A DNA stretch of 64,000 nt from a virus: IMG/VR virus record IMGVR_UViG_3300031551_000001, positions 1-64,000 of that record; one strand, written 5' to 3'. Positions 5,193-51,760 of the stretch are shown piece after piece. The position numbers and the translations under genes are program-made. Within the stretch, counting starts at the first letter, position 1, and the number at the start of each line of letters is the position of its first letter. The notes beneath the pieces are model-generated. The model had not been told where the DNA came from. It ran no database searches and worked only from the letters and a program-made list of their open reading frames with translations.

Positions 5193-5705
5193 TCATTTTA
5201 ATAATGTTAGTCCGTAATCAAAGATTTTTATTAGTAATTTTTGTTTTTCAACATGATTAGCAACAGCAGCAGCAGCATAAGTAGCGGCAGTATAAGGAGC
5301 AGCCTCGGCAGCACAAGCAGAATAAGCAGCAGCAGTATTAGAGTAAGTAATATAAGTAATATAAGCAGCATCATTAGCGGCAGCAATAATGTTGTTATTT
5401 TTTTGAGAACCATATTTTAAGCATTTCTCAGCTGCTTCAATTGCTTTTCTTGGTCGCAAATCATCAGGATATTTTTTCTCATAAATAGATAAAACCTGTT
5501 TTGCCGCAAAAACAGCATATCTTATTTTATCTTTATGAGTCATTAATCTCACAATTAACCAATTCCCCCAATCCAAATGTTCTTTGGTTTTAATAAAATG
5601 ATTGATAATATCAATTGGGTTTTTCAGGGGTTGATTTTTGAACCATTGGATCGCTTCCTCACAAGCTCTTTGTTTTTTAAGCCAATTTACTGTTAATGTT
5701 TTCAT
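5193..5705 (-). CDS. Imm5-like domain protein with Ala-rich tract
   Basis: FAAKQVLSIYE..YPDDLRPRKAIEAA motif followed by Ala/Tyr repeats. Confidence 0.7.
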   Translation of the reverse strand: MKTLTVNWLKKQRACEEAIQWFKNQPLKNPIDIINHFIKTKEHLDWGNWLIVRLMTHKDKIRYAVFAAKQVLSIYEKKYPDDLRPRKAIEAAEKCLKYGSQKNNNIIAAANDAAYITYITYSNTAAAYSACAAEAAPYTAATYAAAAVANHVEKQKLLIKIFDYGLTLLK

Positions 5706-9387: not shown

Positions 9388-9426
9388 TGTATTAGATTTT
9401 AGTAAAACATTCCTTTTTCTACTGCC

Positions 9427-9491
9427 AAAACCCCTAAACCTGGGGGAGTAGGGGCAACCCTGCCATTACTTACGACAGGATGAAGGCAGGG
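9427..9491 (-). terminator. anti-leader hairpin (9458-9491) followed by intrinsic terminator-like hairpin (9427-9454)
   Basis: CCCTGCC/GGCAGGG stem with 20-nt loop, then CCCCTA/TAGGGG stem followed by TTTT. Confidence 0.6.
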
Positions 9492-9493
9492 AT

Positions 9494-9709
9494 TTATGTT
9501 AATATTTCAATATCTTTCAAGGTTTCAACAACATACTTAAGATTTTTTGTAAAATTTCTCTTCTTAAGCCATTCCCATAATGCGTCATGTTCAAAATCAG
9601 CAATAAACCGCCATAATTGAATAAATTTTGTTTGATTTGTTTGGTTATCTAAAGCACAGGATAATACGTGTTTAAATTCCATGTTTCTAAGTGATTTATA
9701 AGTTTTCAT
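9494..9709 (-). CDS. hypothetical early protein (71 aa)
   Basis: Start moved to MKTYKSL, downstream of the hammerhead. Confidence 0.7.
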   Translation of the reverse strand: MKTYKSLRNMEFKHVLSCALDNQTNQTKFIQLWRFIADFEHDALWEWLKKRNFTKNLKYVVETLKDIEILT

Positions 9710-9727
9710 TGTCGTAAGCGTTAGTTT

Positions 9728-9777
9728 GACATAGACCCCTTCCGGGGTTTCGACCATTCAGGCCTCGTCAGTATGCC
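9728..9777 (-). ncRNA. type I hammerhead ribozyme
   Basis: Minus strand GGCATA-CTGACGA-GGCC-TGAAT-GGTC-GAAA-CCCC-GGAA-GGGG-TC-TATGTC: complete CUGAnGA/GAAA/GUC core with stems I-III; predicted cut between 9734 and 9733. Confidence 0.92.
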
Positions 9778-9782
9778 TGCAA

Positions 9783-9971
9783 TTATTTTAATTCAACATA
9801 TAACCAAAATCCACCAAAGAAGACCATAGTTAAAGTAATACCATAAAATATAGGTAATATAATTTCAGAAGGGATGAAGGTTAAGGCAGGAGCTATTAAT
9901 ATCATTAATATAAATAATATTCCGCTTATAGCCCCCAGATATCCTGTTAATTTAATTAATTTTGCTTTCAT
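9783..9971 (-). CDS. small two-helix membrane protein
   Basis: 62 aa, two hydrophobic segments; first gene after the promoter at 10008-10015. Confidence 0.75.
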   Translation of the reverse strand: MKAKLIKLTGYLGAISGILFILMILIAPALTFIPSEIILPIFYGITLTMVFFGGFWLYVELK

Positions 9972-10007
9972 TTGTCGTAAGTATTAAGTGAGTAATGAAT
10001 CAATAAT

Positions 10008-10015
10008 CAAATATA
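10008..10015 (-). promoter_or_regulatory. Bacteroidota primary-sigma -7 box TATATTTG
   Basis: Matches TAnnTTTG. Same box on the minus strand at 3018, 10692, 14216, 14603, 15784, 17359, 34148 and on the plus strand at 34306, 36282, 41705, 44703, 47976, 51738, each upstream of a gene or structured region. Confidence 0.8.
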
Positions 10016-10120
10016 CAACAATGAACCCCCAAAAGTCAAGTAAAAAGTGAATTATTTTGAGATCGTTCGTTAGAATGGCTAAAAATGGCCTTTATGTGCA
10101 TTTTGGGTGTTTTTGGGCTG

Positions 10121-10166: not shown

Positions 10167-10356
10167 TTTAAAATGAGCTTATTTTGATATATTCACCTTC
10201 ATAATGAGTAAGTGAGCCTAAATTTCACATTTTAGATATAATAAGAAAAGCCAGATAATTAGTCTGGCTTTAATGTTCTTCGTAATCCTCTTTCTTTTGA
10301 GTATACGCCGTAGATTTAGTTTTCCGGATCTCGGCTTTGTAGTTCATATCAGCGGT

Positions 10357-10596: not shown

Positions 10597-11319
10597 TGTT
10601 TTAATTTTAAGTTAAAATTATATCTATCTTATTTGATTTGTAAAAAGTATTGACGAACTAATCGAATTCATTATACTTTCAAAGAACATAACAAATATAA
10701 AACAAATATTTTAAACTACAAAATAATTAATATATTTTTTGTCCAGTTTTTACTGGTAAAAACAAGACATTCTATAAGAGTGTGTTTGCTACGAGTAAAA
10801 TTATCTAAGCGGACAAGTTATACTGACAGCAAACCAAGGAAAAAAGAACTCTAAAACATTCATTCTATAACTTACATTATAACAATGACTTACAACAGTA
10901 AAATCTTGACATCTCATTCTTGACGTGTACTACTAATACTATAACAAACACAACAATAATATATAAAGTTTTGAAGTGTAAAGTTGTGGTAAACCCCCGA
11001 AGGGGGTTGAATAGTGAGGATTAAAGAACCAGGAAAGGAGTGAAGGTGAAGTAAGGAGGAGTATGAAAAGAGTGGGTTGGGGAATGAGGGGAGGAAATGA
11101 ATAAAGAAAAGGTGGGGAATAAATAAGGGGTTTGGGGTGCTGATTTATGCAAATAATTTACTGTTCGTATTTTTACGAACAACTCCTTGCTTTTTACTTT
11201 TATTCTCCTTATATTTACCGAAACAAGCCAAGGTTTATACACGCAGAACAACCTAACGGTATACATCTTAACATATATAGATAACTCCATACTCTTATCC
11301 TGCTTGCGTTACAGAAGTT

Positions 11320-11347
11320 TAGTCTGATAACTTGTATTATGTTAAAT
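11320..11347 (+). other. dif-like XerC/XerD recombination site
   Basis: TAGTCTGATAA-CTTGTA-TTATGTTAAAT: 11-6-11 layout, XerD arm identical to E. coli dif. Confidence 0.85.
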
Positions 11348-11436
11348 AGACCAGCTCAAAACACACCCAACACAGGACCACCAACACCATACAGCACATT
11401 ATATCAAAACAAAGCCTCACACAGTTTTACCCCTCA

Positions 11437-11482
11437 AGTGATACCTCTATACCACTCACCTTGAGATCGTGCGTCAGCGGTC
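11437..11482. repeat. ATCGTG-family element (candidate strong gyrase site)
   Basis: Shares TATACCACTCA and ATCGTG with 3436-3503 and spacing with 10121-10166. Confidence 0.45.
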
Positions 11483-11800
11483 TCATAACAGCCATATTCA
11501 CTATTAATTTTGATAGGTCTGTTGCCTTTGATTAGGACAGCATAATAAGGATGAAATGTTATGATCCTGTGTGACCTTTTGGTGTATTATGATGTTTGCG
11601 GTTATGCAGATCTCATTAATGTACCTGGGTGTGCGAATGTGCCGGATCGACGGGGGGTGGTTAGCAAAATTGGGCTTTCCCGGTGGGGTGATACCCCCGT
11701 ATAATTACATATTATTTGGAAGCTCTACCCCTCCCACCAATACTCCATCACTTAGACCACCAATTCCCCTCCTTCCCCACCCTTTTCTTTGTACACATTT

Positions 11801-11824
11801 GAGTTATTAATACAAAGTAGTTAG
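11801..11824 (-). repeat. dispersed 24-bp gene-end site, copy B (CTAACTACTTTGTATTAATAACTC)
   Basis: 17 nt after the stop of ORF 11842..12123. Confidence 0.7.
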
Positions 11825-11841
11825 CGTCATTTACTAACGCA

Positions 11842-12123
11842 CTATTTAAACCGAAAATGTTTATTCCAAATTTCCTCATCCATATCATCATTCCATCCTT
11901 GTATTGATTTTTCGTGCCTAAATTCAGCTTCCTCGTCTCCAATTTCATAAGGCAGTACATTTCTACGCTCTTCAAATTCTAAATCTTCCTGATCACATCC
12001 GAAGCATAAATCATTTTCTTTGGACAGGTATTTTGTTTGCACTCCACACCTAATACATTCACCTTCATATAAATGAAAATTTGGGTCAACTTTCTTTGCT
12101 TTTTGTCTTTCTTTATTTGTCAT
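11842..12123 (-). CDS. hypothetical protein with CxxC..CxxC
   Basis: Start moved to MTNKERQ, coupled to the stop of the upstream gene. Confidence 0.65.
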   Translation of the reverse strand: MTNKERQKAKKVDPNFHLYEGECIRCGVQTKYLSKENDLCFGCDQEDLEFEERRNVLPYEIGDEEAEFRHEKSIQGWNDDMDEEIWNKHFRFK

Positions 12124-50551: not shown

Positions 50552-51646
50552 ATGTTCATAGTAAACGGAGAAATCCTTTCAAAAACAAAGACACCTGAAT
50601 TATATAAATGGTATGATGAGAAAATAAGCACTATTAAGAGCTTAGAAAAAGATACATTTATATTTTCAGCGCACAAAAGGCCACATTACGAAACAGATGA
50701 TAGTGGTCGTAAGAGATTAATCAGACAATTCAAGGCATTGCCGTCCTCTTCCACTATTTGGAATGAAGAAATGAAGGAACATCAAACATGGATATTTGCT
50801 CCAAGCGTAAATTCCATTACAAATTTAGATGGGATTTCTGTTGTAAAAAACAAACGTCCCATTGTAATAGGAGGAACAACGCTTTTCAGTAAGAAGCATG
50901 ATATAGATATTATTTTCTTTTTACGATATATTTCAGAGGGTGTAAAGAATGGAAAAGCATTCGAAGTTGATATTGAAAATGACAATATAGAAGAAGCCAA
51001 GAAAAACAAGATGGCTGCTAAAGCCCAGTATTTGCTTTATGATGACGATTCTCCGATTCATCCGAATAATTTCGGGTCAGAAAAAGCAATACGTGATTTG
51101 GGTATAGCTTGGGGTGTTGTGGATGCAATGAAAATACATGTTGATGAAGTAAGAAATAAACTTTGGGAAAAAATTCTTAAGGCTGAAAAAACAAGAGATT
51201 TTTCAAGGAGAGGATTTTCTGCTTTTATTGATAAGGTGAATGATACTAAAGAAGCCGCAAAGAGAGCTCTTATATTAAGGGCAATAAATCTTGGTGTACT
51301 TACTTATGAAGACGGATCATGGTCATTACAGGCAGAAAATACAACCACAAATATATGCAGTGTATCACCGCAAATGGAAGGAGAAAAAGAGGAAGTTGTC
51401 ATTGGATATATACTTGAAAATATTCATTATTTAAGCCTTGTTGAGAAGTCGGTGGAAACGGCATCAGAAAAACAGAAAGAAAAACCAAAGCAGGCAAAAA
51501 CCGACACAGTTTCTTTTGACAGGATTAAAGCTATAGACCAATGTATAGAGGAACTTGGTTGGAAGAAGGGGGATTTATGGAAGAAAAAGAATGAAGAAAT
51601 AGAAAACATTCTTAAAAATCAGATAAAGCCTGCTGGCAGTGAATAA
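50552..51646 (+). CDS. hypothetical protein downstream of the capsid gene
   Basis: 364-aa ORF. Confidence 0.65.
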   Translation: MFIVNGEILSKTKTPELYKWYDEKISTIKSLEKDTFIFSAHKRPHYETDDSGRKRLIRQFKALPSSSTIWNEEMKEHQTWIFAPSVNSITNLDGISVVKNKRPIVIGGTTLFSKKHDIDIIFFLRYISEGVKNGKAFEVDIENDNIEEAKKNKMAAKAQYLLYDDDSPIHPNNFGSEKAIRDLGIAWGVVDAMKIHVDEVRNKLWEKILKAEKTRDFSRRGFSAFIDKVNDTKEAAKRALILRAINLGVLTYEDGSWSLQAENTTTNICSVSPQMEGEKEEVVIGYILENIHYLSLVEKSVETASEKQKEKPKQAKTDTVSFDRIKAIDQCIEELGWKKGDLWKKKNEEIENILKNQIKPAGSE

Positions 51647-51678
51647 GAGTTTCCGTTTCCGTTAGTTCTCATAGTGCG

Positions 51679-51708
51679 CCCTTCACAGTTTATTCTGTGA
51701 GGGGTTTT
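51679..51708 (+). terminator. intrinsic terminator preceded by an anti-leader tract
   Basis: CCCTTCACAG/CTGTGAGGGG stem followed by TTTT. Confidence 0.75.
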
Positions 51709-51760
51709 GTGTGAAAGAGCAGATTTCAAAAGATTAGTAAATTTGTAGAAATTTAAACAA

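What the first reader, a model, noticed from the sequence alone, without database searches (positions are those of the whole stretch)
9427..10015. Early operon with a hammerhead ribozyme and a built-in antisense hairpin against its own start codons
Seen, in transcript order: promoter (10008), 62-aa membrane peptide, complete hammerhead (9728-9777), 71-aa ORF, hairpin (9458-9491), terminator. Both genes share the leader CTTACGACA just before the ATG. The hairpin's 5' arm and loop read UGCCUUCAUCCUGUCGUAAGUA. This pairs with UACUUACGACAAAUGAAAGCA of the first gene (11 contiguous pairs plus the AUG region) and with CUUACGACA-AUGAA of the second. Inference: a self-limiting timer or a type I toxin-antitoxin-like module. 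The genes would be translated until the 3' end is made, and ribozyme cleavage would convert cis repression of the membrane peptide into trans repression.
Basis: partly seen in the sequence, partly recalled or inferred. Interest (0 to 1): 0.72.

Follow-up and report, generated by a model that had tools for sequence, protein, structure and literature searches.

The report
Phage ribozyme operon with self-pairing ends
A small two-gene unit of a bacterial virus holds a genuine self-cutting RNA and ends in a hairpin whose loop mirrors the sequence just before its own start codons; this match changes in step in other viruses, so the message probably folds back on itself to control its own translation.

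Summary
The hammerhead (9780..9722, minus strand) is real. A model built from 83 other viral hammerheads scores it 68.6 bits (E 4e-17), and it is the only hit in the 81.9-kb genome. It is an ordinary member of the known kind of phage intergenic hammerheads.

The shared leader has a plain origin. Gene 1 plus the hammerhead is a 263-bp indel bounded by the direct repeat CTTACGACA(A). It is absent from a near-identical contig (L005).

The anti-leader hairpin is the interesting part. By itself it is weak: 11 of 269 start regions in this genome have an 11-nt complement downstream. But I found six distinct cassettes in five phage records with the same plan: leader, small gene(s), hairpin 1, hairpin 2, then UUUUGGCAGU. 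In each, the hairpin-1 loop matches its own leader. The matches are kept through compensatory substitutions, paired deletions, two U·G wobbles and one wholly different 11-mer.

Best reading (0.58): an RNA fold-back between the 3' hairpin loop and the leader, carried on a mobile cassette. Neither RNA data nor cleavage data exist. The type I toxin-antitoxin idea is not supported. This scan has noted similar anti-leader features on other Bacteroidota phage DNA.

The parts
10008..10039 (-). Promoter-like site: TTGACT (10039..10034), 18 nt, TATATT (10015..10010). TATATTTG (10015..10008) fits the Bacteroidota -7 motif TAnnTTTG, which I recall from memory and did not test.
   Evidence: 10 of 12 matches. 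Conserved in L005; a weakly similar one stands in L149. The transcription start is not known.
9973..9983 (-). Leader motif 1, UACUUACGACA, 1 nt before the AUG of gene 1. It is the pairing partner of the hairpin-1 loop (11 pairs).
   Evidence: (-18.4 kcal/mol, the best of 269 sense start regions).
9783..9971 (-). Gene 1: 62-aa protein with two hydrophobic segments. An orphan. Together with the hammerhead it forms an indel relative to L005.
   Evidence: No relative found. Absent in L005.
9722..9780 (-). Type I hammerhead ribozyme with stem I open. Core and stems lie at 9777..9728. The predicted cut is after C9734, leaving a 5'-OH on U9733.
   Evidence: (68.6 bits, E 4e-17). Cleavage was not tested.
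9710..9719 (-). Leader motif 2, (G)CUUACGACA, directly before the AUG of gene 2. 9 Watson-Crick pairs plus one G.U with the loop. It is the right-hand copy of the direct repeat that bounds the indel.
   Evidence: -14.8 kcal/mol.
9494..9709 (-). Gene 2: 71-aa soluble protein of unknown function.
   Evidence: relatives at 99% and 73% identity; no solid family.
9458..9491 (-). Hairpin 1: 7-bp stem CCCUGCC/GGCAGGG with a 20-nt loop. The anti-leader UGUCGUAAGUA lies at 9477..9467.
   Evidence: The stem is kept with changes in relatives. The loop covaries with the leader. No variant letters were listed inside it in 4 metagenome runs, while hairpin 2 varies.
9415..9454 (-). Hairpin 2 (9454..9431), UUUU (9430..9427) and the conserved tail GGCAGUAGAAAA (9426..9415). 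Possibly a weak terminator or a processing signal.
   Evidence: Not called a terminator.

Best explanation
This is a small, horizontally mobile expression cassette of phages that probably infect Bacteroidota.

Layout: a host-type promoter makes an RNA whose leader (UACUUACGACA, ending 0-2 nt before the AUG) is complementary to the loop of a stable hairpin placed 1-3 nt after the last stop codon. A second GC-rich hairpin and a conserved UUUUGGCAGU tail follow.

Proposed action: once the 3' end is made, the loop pairs with the leader. The helix is 11-13 bp, probably stacked on the hairpin stem. It covers the ribosome landing site of an mRNA that has no Shine-Dalgarno sequence. Translation is then shut off or limited to nascent RNA, or the two ends protect each other from decay.

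The window's version: a second module has been inserted at the leader. This module is an orphan membrane-protein gene plus a type I hammerhead with its own copy of the leader. The hammerhead cuts after C9734 and separates the two cistrons. The 3' product (gene 2) keeps the lock in cis. The 5' product (gene 1) can meet it only in trans or before cleavage.

Shown: the sequence features, family membership of the hammerhead, the indel, and covariation of leader and loop.
Inferred: cleavage in vivo, the pairing in RNA, and its effect.
For: Hammerhead:
- One descriptor hit in the genome, against 2 in 300 simulated genomes.
Stem I, which was not in the pattern, has at least 4 pairs in 137 of 139.
- In the alignment of 83 of them, 99.1% of cells are paired, and 6 of 6 stem I pairs and 3 of 4 stem II pairs change on both sides.
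- Model R1 scores the window at 68.6 bits.

Indel:
- L005 has the same promoter and leader running straight into gene 2.
- The same form appears in run X3.

Lock:
- Six distinct cassettes share the plan.
- Leader/loop pairs: a, b UACUUACGACA/UGUCGUAAGUA; c AAACUUACGAC/GUCGUAAGUUU (U>A matched by A>U); d UAAAACUUACGAC/GUCGUGGGUUUUA (two U.G, which pair only in the sense strand); e AAAACUUCGCA/UGCGAAGUUUU (two A lost in the leader, two U lost in the loop); f AUUUGCAGGUC/GACCUGCAAAU (unrelated sequence).
- Cognate duplexes are -14.7 to -18.1 kcal/mol. The e and f loops against foreign leaders give +0.1 to -9.0, apart from the e loop with the f leader at -13.1.
- G000 and G001 share only 2 of G000's ORFs of 60 aa or more, yet both carry the cassette. 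In each genome the 9-mer occurs only in the leader(s) and the loop.
- No tyrosine recombinase in G000 or G001.
- RNAfold puts the leader:loop helix at probability 0.99 (window, full length), 0.92 (L005), 0.56 (L149) and 0.60 (3' cleavage product).
- In 5 of 6 loops the anti-leader sits next to the 3' arm (0-2 nt) behind a 5-8 nt linker.

Precedents:
- icaR (PMC3868564, abstract).
- hok tac/fbi (PMC9841398, passages).
- Bacteroidia ribosomes ignore SD sequences (PMC9976891, start of the abstract in the listing).
Against: - No RNA run holds the locus. Neither transcript ends, cleavage nor pairing have been seen.
- There are only six cassettes, and four of them have related leaders.
- The wobble evidence for RNA rather than DNA rests on one cassette (d), plus one terminal G.U in the window.
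- Among loci with this leader at a plausible gene start, 6 lack any lock (L150, L151, L178, L180, L183, L184) and 4 have one.
- A broad screen of 1.56 Mb of phage loci showed no general excess: 101 hairpins scoring 10 or more, against 101 in the reversed-loop control.
- The loop has three equally good chance partners elsewhere in the genome, at -19.1 to -19.6 kcal/mol.
- An 11-bp helix inside a closed 16-21 nt loop is sterically demanding.
- Long-range fold predictions are unreliable.
- In G004 the next gene follows hairpin 2 with no visible promoter, so hairpin 2 may not end the RNA.
- Rfam does not recognise the hammerhead at its thresholds.
Confidence: 0.58

Rival explanations
1. The 3' end (hairpin 1 plus hairpin 2) is released or separately made as a small RNA of about 70 nt. 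It acts in trans on all RNAs that carry the leader: sister transcripts, the cleaved gene-1 RNA, or the same cassette in a co-infecting phage. It would not work as an intramolecular fold-back.
For: - The architecture (seed in a loop, then a GC hairpin and a U run) resembles 3'-end-derived small RNAs. This resemblance is recalled, not tested.
- In metagenome contigs the hairpin region 9445-9502 has 5-7 times the depth of its neighbours and is joined to other upstream genes.
- After hammerhead cleavage, gene 1 can be reached only in trans.
- A promoter-like TTGAAA-16-AATATT lies at 9528..9501, just upstream (9 of 12, chance level).
Against: - Each loop matches the leader of its own cassette, which is what cis action needs.
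- No RNA data.
- The internal promoter-like site is no better than shuffled sequence gives: 13 sites found against 11.4 expected.
Confidence: 0.17
2. The inverted copies act in DNA, not RNA. They would be recombination or folded single-strand sites (attC-like, or the ends of a small mobile element) that move the cassette. Complementarity would be a by-product of how cassettes are made.
For: - The cassette is clearly mobile. It stands in unrelated phages, carries different cargo, and shows indels bounded by the leader repeat.
- PeSL cassettes of T4-type phages shuffle genes and form mini-circles (PMC2839356, abstract).
Against: - Conservation runs beyond both repeats (promoter side; hairpin 2 and the tail), so the repeats are internal and not element ends.
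- No tyrosine recombinase in G000 (90% complete) or G001 (complete).
- Cassette d keeps pairing only through U.G wobbles on the sense strand, which breaks the DNA inverted repeat.
- The paired leader segment always ends 0-2 nt from the AUG.
Confidence: 0.12
3. A DNA- or RNA-binding protein recognises the 11-mer as an operator-like site in either orientation. The hairpin would be only a terminator-type structure that happens to hold one copy.
For: Three copies of one exact 9-mer within 520 bp and nowhere else in 81.9 kb.
Against: - The two complete phages share only two proteins: one Imm5-like, the other unassigned.
- Cassettes e and f have different 11-mers, each matched by its own loop. That would need a new protein specificity each time.
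- An RNA-binding protein would not bind both a sequence and its complement.
Confidence: 0.05
4. The complementarity has no function: a chance match in the window, carried along with homologous flanks in the relatives.
For: - An 11-nt complement downstream of a start is found for 11 of 269 starts in this genome.
- There is no general excess in the broad screen.
- Cassettes a to d have related leaders and loops.
Against: - Cassettes e and f sit in homologous 3' flanks but have different loops, each with a perfect 11-mer to its own leader.
- By my own rough estimate, each such match has a chance of about 1e-5 (number of registers times 4^-11); this figure comes from no call.
- The paired deletions in e relative to c, and the wobbles in d, are not expected from hitch-hiking.
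Confidence: 0.05

Closest known systems
Intergenic hammerhead ribozymes of phages and prophages (Perreault et al. 2011, PMC3088659; passages read)
   Same: The conserved core and three stems. The position between genes on the sense strand of a phage operon. Relatives with several hammerheads in successive gaps: L061 has three, and L054, L060 and L079 have four each. The paper proposes that long phage transcripts are cut into gene-length mRNAs.
   Different: Rfam 15 reaches its gathering score neither for this one nor for any match in the 7 related loci tested. Here the ribozyme travels with a leader copy as an insertable module and sits inside a cassette with a 3' lock.
icaR mRNA of Staphylococcus aureus: the 3'-UTR pairs with the Shine-Dalgarno region of the same mRNA (PMC3868564, abstract read). 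A related case is B. subtilis hbs 5'/3'-UTR (PMC5737220; search listing only).
   Same: A short 3'-UTR motif complementary to the translation start region of its own mRNA. The proposed outcome is blocked initiation and/or altered decay.
   Different: There is no SD here; the target is the -1 to -13 leader of an SD-less mRNA. The anti-leader is displayed in a hairpin loop a few nt after the stop codon. It is a family of mobile phage cassettes, each with its own matched pair. Nothing has been tested experimentally.
hok mRNA tac/fbi fold-back of the hok/sok type I toxin-antitoxin system (PMC9841398, passages read)
   Same: Pairing of the 5' and 3' ends keeps the full-length mRNA closed and untranslated. 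In the window the first cistron is a small hydrophobic protein.
   Different: No separate antisense RNA gene was seen. The lock goes with soluble cargo in the relatives. It pairs directly with the start region rather than acting through a relay of boxes. No 3' trimming is known.
PeSL (promoter-early stem-loop) cassettes of T4-type phages (PMC2839356, abstract read; PMC4122927, listing only)
   Same: Conserved promoter and stem-loop flanks around variable small orphan genes. Indels between close relatives are bounded by the flanks. The flanks are shared between otherwise different phages.
   Different: There is no sequence relation. PeSLs are described as promoter plus terminator, with no complementarity to the leader and no ribozymes.

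Membership tests
Hammerhead ribozyme, type I | Conserved core CUGANGA, GAAA and a cleavage triplet NUH in the right order | tested here: met
   CUGACGA 9771..9765, GAAA 9751..9748, GUC 9736..9734. The same core appears in the Rfam RAGATH-1-hammerhead consensus line and in all 83 aligned relatives.
Hammerhead ribozyme, type I | Three helices around the core; stems II and III closed by loops, stem I open | tested here: met
   Stems of 6, 4 and 5 pairs. RNAfold predicts stems II and III.
Hammerhead ribozyme, type I | Helices supported by covariation in relatives | tested here: met
   A3: stem I 6 of 6 and stem II 3 of 4 pairs change on both sides; 99.1% of cells are paired, against 30-44% when the partner is slid. 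Stem III was fixed by the search pattern, so it says nothing.
Hammerhead ribozyme, type I | Reaches the curated score of an Rfam hammerhead family | tested here: not met
   No match at gathering scores. The best is RF03152 at 18.2 bits against 56.3. My own model R1 gives 68.6 bits. R1 was built from sequences found with a pattern taken from this very hammerhead.
Hammerhead ribozyme, type I | Self-cleavage | not testable with these tools
   No RNA runs.
Intramolecular 5'/3'-UTR pairing (icaR type) | 3'-UTR segment complementary to the translation start region of the same transcript | tested here: met
   11 pairs to gene 1 and 10 to gene 2. That both lie on one transcript is inferred from the promoter and hairpin positions only.
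Intramolecular 5'/3'-UTR pairing (icaR type) | Complementarity conserved or covarying in relatives | tested here: met
   Six cassettes with matched changes.
Intramolecular 5'/3'-UTR pairing (icaR type) | Effect on initiation complex formation or RNase cleavage | not testable with these tools
   Needs toeprinting or reporters.
Type I toxin-antitoxin system | Small hydrophobic toxic protein linked to the antisense element across relatives | tested here: not met
   Gene 1 is hydrophobic but has no relative. It is absent from L005 and from the other five cassettes, whose cargo is different.
Type I toxin-antitoxin system | Separately transcribed antisense RNA antitoxin | tested here: inconclusive
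   Only chance-level promoter-like sites. No RNA data.
PeSL-like mobile regulatory cassette | Conserved regulatory flanks around variable genes, with indels bounded by them | tested here: met
PeSL-like mobile regulatory cassette | Sequence relation to T4-type PeSLs, or mini-circles | not tested
   No PeSL sequence was at hand. Circles cannot be seen in contigs.
Integron attC-type cassette site | A tyrosine recombinase (integrase) in the element | tested here: not met
   PF00589: none in G000, G001, G004 or G006; one in G005. The search rang in 14 of 14 control genomes.

The most novel reading that the evidence does not exclude
Phages of Bacteroidota, whose hosts do not use Shine-Dalgarno sequences, carry a class of mobile 'self-addressed' gene cassettes. 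Each brings its own leader and a matching anti-leader displayed in a 3' hairpin loop. Every newly acquired accessory gene would therefore arrive with a built-in, cassette-specific translational lock: a pulse of translation from nascent RNA, then closure. Self-cleaving ribozymes inserted between cistrons would decide which cistron keeps the lock in cis. This would be a general RNA-only way of dosing early or accessory genes. It would also be a ready-made set of orthogonal cis-repressors for Bacteroidota.
Probability: 0.35. Interest if true: 0.8.

Novelty: new variant of a known kind. Interest (0 to 1): 0.66.

Why it matters
How translation is controlled in Bacteroidota and their phages is poorly known, because the usual handle, the Shine-Dalgarno sequence, is not used there. 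A family of natural cassettes in which a 3' hairpin loop and the leader change together gives a directly testable RNA mechanism: six matched pairs are ready for swap and compensation experiments.

The finding also links two things that are usually treated apart. One is the modular shuffling of small phage genes. The other is post-transcriptional control, including the still unexplained role of the many hammerheads in phage operons.

The hammerhead by itself is ordinary. The hammerhead collection made here does show that a large class of short viral type I hammerheads escapes Rfam's thresholds.

Tried and rejected
- DNA search of the phage collection with the 901-bp region: no match.
- Protein-guided search of viral contigs: gene 2 gave only L004, which I judged spurious (41% over residues 16-49, read). 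Gene 1 gave none.
- Stem-only patterns for hairpin 1 in viral contigs gave only unrelated coding hits plus L149. The loop 17-mer gave L149 and one chance hit, L156.
- The last leader 17-mer gave 8 new loci, none with a lock.
- Model R2 of the 3' cassette was run on 100 of the 185 loci held plus the window (991 kb; L081-L148 and L155-L166 were not searched). It found no further lock. It found only plain hairpin-plus-UUUUGGCAGU units in L178 and L176, and hits I judged spurious in L061 and L185. One further weak hit, L173 at E 1, was not inspected.
- Broad screen of any hairpin against any ATG: observed equals control.
- No RNA holder was listed among the sequencing runs. The four DNA runs laid were contigs, so no RNA ends or cleavage could be seen.
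- Rfam at E up to 1 gave nothing for the GC-rich element between the two genes of L153.
- The G001 hammerhead-like element gave contradictory results: no match, 27.5 bits. I make no claim for it.
- Transposon with terminal inverted repeats: rejected, because conservation runs past both repeats.
- tRNA scan: none.
- Papers: my searches found no description of phage cassettes with matched leader and 3' loop. One search found nothing at all. Supplements were closed and may hold hammerhead lists that include this class.
Full report
WHAT IS THERE

The window is the first 64 kb of an 81,885-bp virus record, about 30% G+C. Genes up to about 32 kb run on the minus strand. Their leaders are A/T-rich with no Shine-Dalgarno sequence, and many start ATGAAA. 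That fits a phage of Bacteroidota.

In transcript order the flagged region reads:
- promoter-like TTGACT-18-TATATT, 10039..10010;
- leader UACUUACGACA, 9983..9973;
- gene 1, 62 aa, 9971..9783;
- hammerhead, 9777..9728;
- leader (G)CUUACGACA, 9719..9710;
- gene 2, 71 aa, 9709..9494;
- hairpin 1, 9491..9458;
- hairpin 2, 9454..9431, then UUUU and GGCAGUAGAAAA.

A terminator-like hairpin at 10271..10247 closes the gene upstream.

THE HAMMERHEAD

The core (CUGACGA, GAAA, GUC) and stems of 6, 4 and 5 pairs are all present. My descriptor finds this one site in the genome, against 2 hits in 300 first-order Markov genomes.

Rfam does not help. There is no match at gathering scores in the window. At E up to 10 the only hammerhead-type match is RAGATH-1-hammerhead, at 18.2 bits against a cut-off of 56.3.

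I therefore searched viral contigs with a pattern taken from the core, the first stem II pair and stem III. Stem I was not in the pattern, yet it has at least 4 pairs in 137 of 139 and exactly 6 in 90 of 139.

I aligned 83 of the 139. I dropped duplicates, those with a core longer than 40 nt, and those at locus ends. In that alignment 99.1% of 1245 cells pair. All 6 stem I pairs and 3 of 4 stem II pairs change on both sides. When the partner is slid, only 30-44% pair.

The model built from them (R1, which does not include the window) scores 9780..9722 at 68.6 bits, E 4e-17. This is the only match in the genome. The circularity should be noted: the pattern came from this hammerhead, so stem III and the core match by construction. 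Stems I and II and the tail do not.

L061 has three such ribozymes in successive intergenic gaps. One has the same stem I and the same tail, AAACUAA. Rfam also misses all of them in the 7 loci tested.

This is the known kind described by Perreault et al. 2011, who saw hammerheads flanking genes in prophages and proposed that they cut long phage transcripts (PMC3088659, passages). Cleavage itself is untested here.

WHY BOTH GENES SHARE THE LEADER

L005 is a 1400-bp metagenome contig with gene 2 at 99% identity. It has the same promoter and then UACUUACGACA-AUG of gene 2 directly. Gene 1 and the hammerhead are missing. The difference is a 263-bp indel bounded by the direct repeat CTTACGACA(A).

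Contigs of four salt-marsh DNA runs show three things:
- the L005 form, in X3;
- a form, in X3, X7 and X10, in which the hammerhead follows gene 2, the loop of hairpin 1 is lost, and the G.U of stem I becomes A-U;
- the hammerhead-plus-leader module in front of two other genes (loose ends at 9706 and 9702).

The hairpin region 9445-9502 has 5-7 times the depth of its neighbours in X3 and X7, and it is joined at 9494 to other upstream sequence. No variant letters are listed inside hairpin 1, while hairpin 2 varies. These are contigs, so they show presence only.

The picture is a mosaic of modules that recombine at the leader, like the PeSL cassettes of T4-type phages (PMC2839356, abstract). The duplicated leader therefore needs no regulatory explanation.

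THE ANTI-LEADER HAIRPIN

Taken alone, it is weak. The 9-mer is unique to this locus, and gene 1's start region is the best of 269 sense targets of the loop (-18.4 kcal/mol). But three unrelated sites reach -19. And 11 of 269 start regions have an 11-nt complement within 1.5 kb downstream, against 5 of 269 upstream. L005 is too close to the window to inform.

The comparison with other phages changes this. A 17-mer of leader plus start found 7 viral loci. In L149, the locus from complete phage G001 (66,445 bp), the same leader precedes a different 82-aa gene. Three nt after its stop lies CCUGCCG-CCAAUCCUGUCGUAAGUAAU-CGGCAGG. Hairpin 2 and UUGGCAGUAAAAGAC follow.

G001 shares only 2 of G000's ORFs of 60 aa or more. 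In G001 the 9-mer occurs only in that leader and that loop.

I then screened 16,460 ATG-to-stop candidates in 1.5 Mb. Complements of 11 nt or more numbered 18, against 8 with shuffled tails. A hairpin-restricted screen followed. Both brought out further cassettes of the same architecture, which I read directly:
- a: window and L005
- b: G001
- c: G005, the same sequence as L154 and L155
- d: L153
- e and f: two neighbouring cassettes in G004 (L152)

The leader/loop pairs are:
- a, b: UACUUACGACA / UGUCGUAAGUA
- c: AAACUUACGAC / GUCGUAAGUUU. A U>A change in the leader is matched by A>U in the loop.
- d: UAAAACUUACGAC / GUCGUGGGUUUUA. 13 pairs, two of them U.G.
- e: AAAACUUCGCA / UGCGAAGUUUU. 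This is c with two A deleted from the leader and the two facing U deleted from the loop.
- f: AUUUGCAGGUC / GACCUGCAAAU. An unrelated sequence.

Cognate duplexes are -14.7 to -18.1 kcal/mol. The e and f loops give +0.1 to -9.0 with foreign leaders, apart from the e loop with the f leader at -13.1.

The flanks are homologous. The stems of hairpins 1 and 2 pair in 95.8% of 72 cells, with 3 of 12 pairs changed on both sides. In every case the paired leader segment ends 0-2 nt before the AUG. In 5 of 6 loops the anti-leader abuts the 3' arm behind a 5-8 nt linker. That geometry would let the new helix stack on the stem.

RNA OR DNA?

Four points favour RNA on the sense strand:
- the U.G pairs of cassette d, and the terminal G.U of gene 2 in the window, would be A.C mismatches on the other strand, and they break the DNA inverted repeat;
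- the position at the start codon;
- conservation that runs beyond both repeats;
- the absence of a tyrosine recombinase in G000 and G001.

Only two proteins are shared by the two complete phages: one Imm5-like, the other unassigned. RNAfold places the leader:loop helix in or near the minimum-energy fold, with probability 0.99, 0.92, 0.56 and 0.60.

Against this reading:
- the wobble evidence is one cassette;
- there are no RNA data;
- six loci have the leader at a plausible gene start without a lock;
- a broad screen shows no general excess;
- model R2 found no more locks in the 100 sources searched.

MECHANISM

Most likely (0.58) the cassette RNA folds back. The hairpin-1 loop pairs with the leader and covers the landing site of a ribosome that depends on an open leader. 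This would restrict translation to nascent RNA or change decay.

The precedents are icaR (PMC3868564, abstract) and the hok tac/fbi fold-back (PMC9841398, passages).

In the window the inserted hammerhead module splits the RNA. Gene 2 keeps the lock in cis (10 pairs). Gene 1 pairs with it only before cleavage or in trans (11 + 5 pairs). In G004 the same layout (gene A, hammerhead, gene B, lock) has a lock matched to gene B: -15.1 against -9.0 kcal/mol. In L153 an unassigned GC-rich element sits where the hammerhead would be.

The rivals are a trans-acting 3' fragment (0.17), DNA-level cassette sites (0.12), a protein operator (0.05) and no function (0.05). The type I toxin-antitoxin reading is not supported: the lock goes with soluble cargo, and gene 1 is an orphan.

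NOVELTY

The hammerhead is a new member of a known kind. 5'/3' pairing within one bacterial mRNA is also known.

What I did not find in print is a family of mobile phage cassettes, each with its own covarying leader/3'-loop pair, in SD-less hosts and combined with ribozymes.

This scan has noted similar anti-leader features on other Bacteroidota phage DNA (e1-5884473, e1-5644734, e1-6093398). Those are unchecked AI notes and I do not count them as evidence. No look-alike of this hairpin was on record.

Noticed in passing
L061:6309-7272: Three hammerheads (R1 scores 43.9, 48.6 and 69.3 bits) lie in a 1-kb stretch. The two read directly each follow a stop codon and are followed by CAAACUAAAAA..AUG.
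   Followed up: partly
L153:4530-4620: A GC-rich structured element of about 60 nt lies between two small genes, exactly where the hammerhead sits in the window and in G004. There is no Rfam match at E up to 1. It might be another self-cleaving RNA.
   Followed up: partly
L152:966-1024 (= G004:C1:3710-3768): This hammerhead scores 68.5 bits with R1 but reads CGAGAC where the family has CGAAAC, a core change.
   Followed up: no
L168:966-1082 (G001): A hammerhead-like element with an insert of about 50 nt between stem II and GAAA, roughly 500 nt after the lock cassette. It scored 27.5 bits but gave no match.
   Followed up: partly
window 50552-51730 (+): A 364-aa gene has the leader AACUAACGGA-g-AUG, and its exact 10-nt complement UCCGUUAGUU lies 11 nt after the stop, before a terminator hairpin. 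At this length the screen shows 19 observed against 12 in the control, so it may be chance.
   Followed up: no
window 9415-9430; L178:3150-5680; L152; L149; L005: The tail UUUUGGC(A/G)GU(A/G)(A/G)AA after a GC-rich hairpin recurs between many small genes in several otherwise different phages, with or without hairpin 1. Its role is unknown; it could be a processing site or part of a promoter.
   Followed up: partly
L150, L151, L178, L180, L183, L184: The leader (A)AAACUUACGACA-AUG stands at plausible gene starts in further phages that have no anti-leader hairpin. The leader may therefore have a role of its own.
   Followed up: partly
window 5193-5705 (-): This 170-aa protein has an Imm5-like immunity domain (PF21805, 27.4 bits against a cut-off of 25). 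It is one of only two proteins shared with the otherwise unrelated phage G001 (56% identity; 73% at the DNA level).
   Followed up: partly
L005:404-660: L005 has an extra 67-aa gene after hairpin 2 that the window lacks. Both it and the next gene start behind ..CUAAUACA-AUGAAAA. This is another leader that serves as a module junction.
   Followed up: no
window 10600-11850: A stretch of about 1.2 kb with only short, overlapping ORFs and a higher G+C (0.345) than its surroundings.
   Followed up: no
L006-L125 (viral contigs): A large class of short type I hammerheads has a 6-bp stem I, a 5-nt stem II loop (consensus UGAAU) and a CAA(C) tail. Arrays of 3-4 per contig occur in L038, L054, L060 and L079. 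None in the 7 loci tested reaches Rfam's gathering scores.
   Followed up: partly
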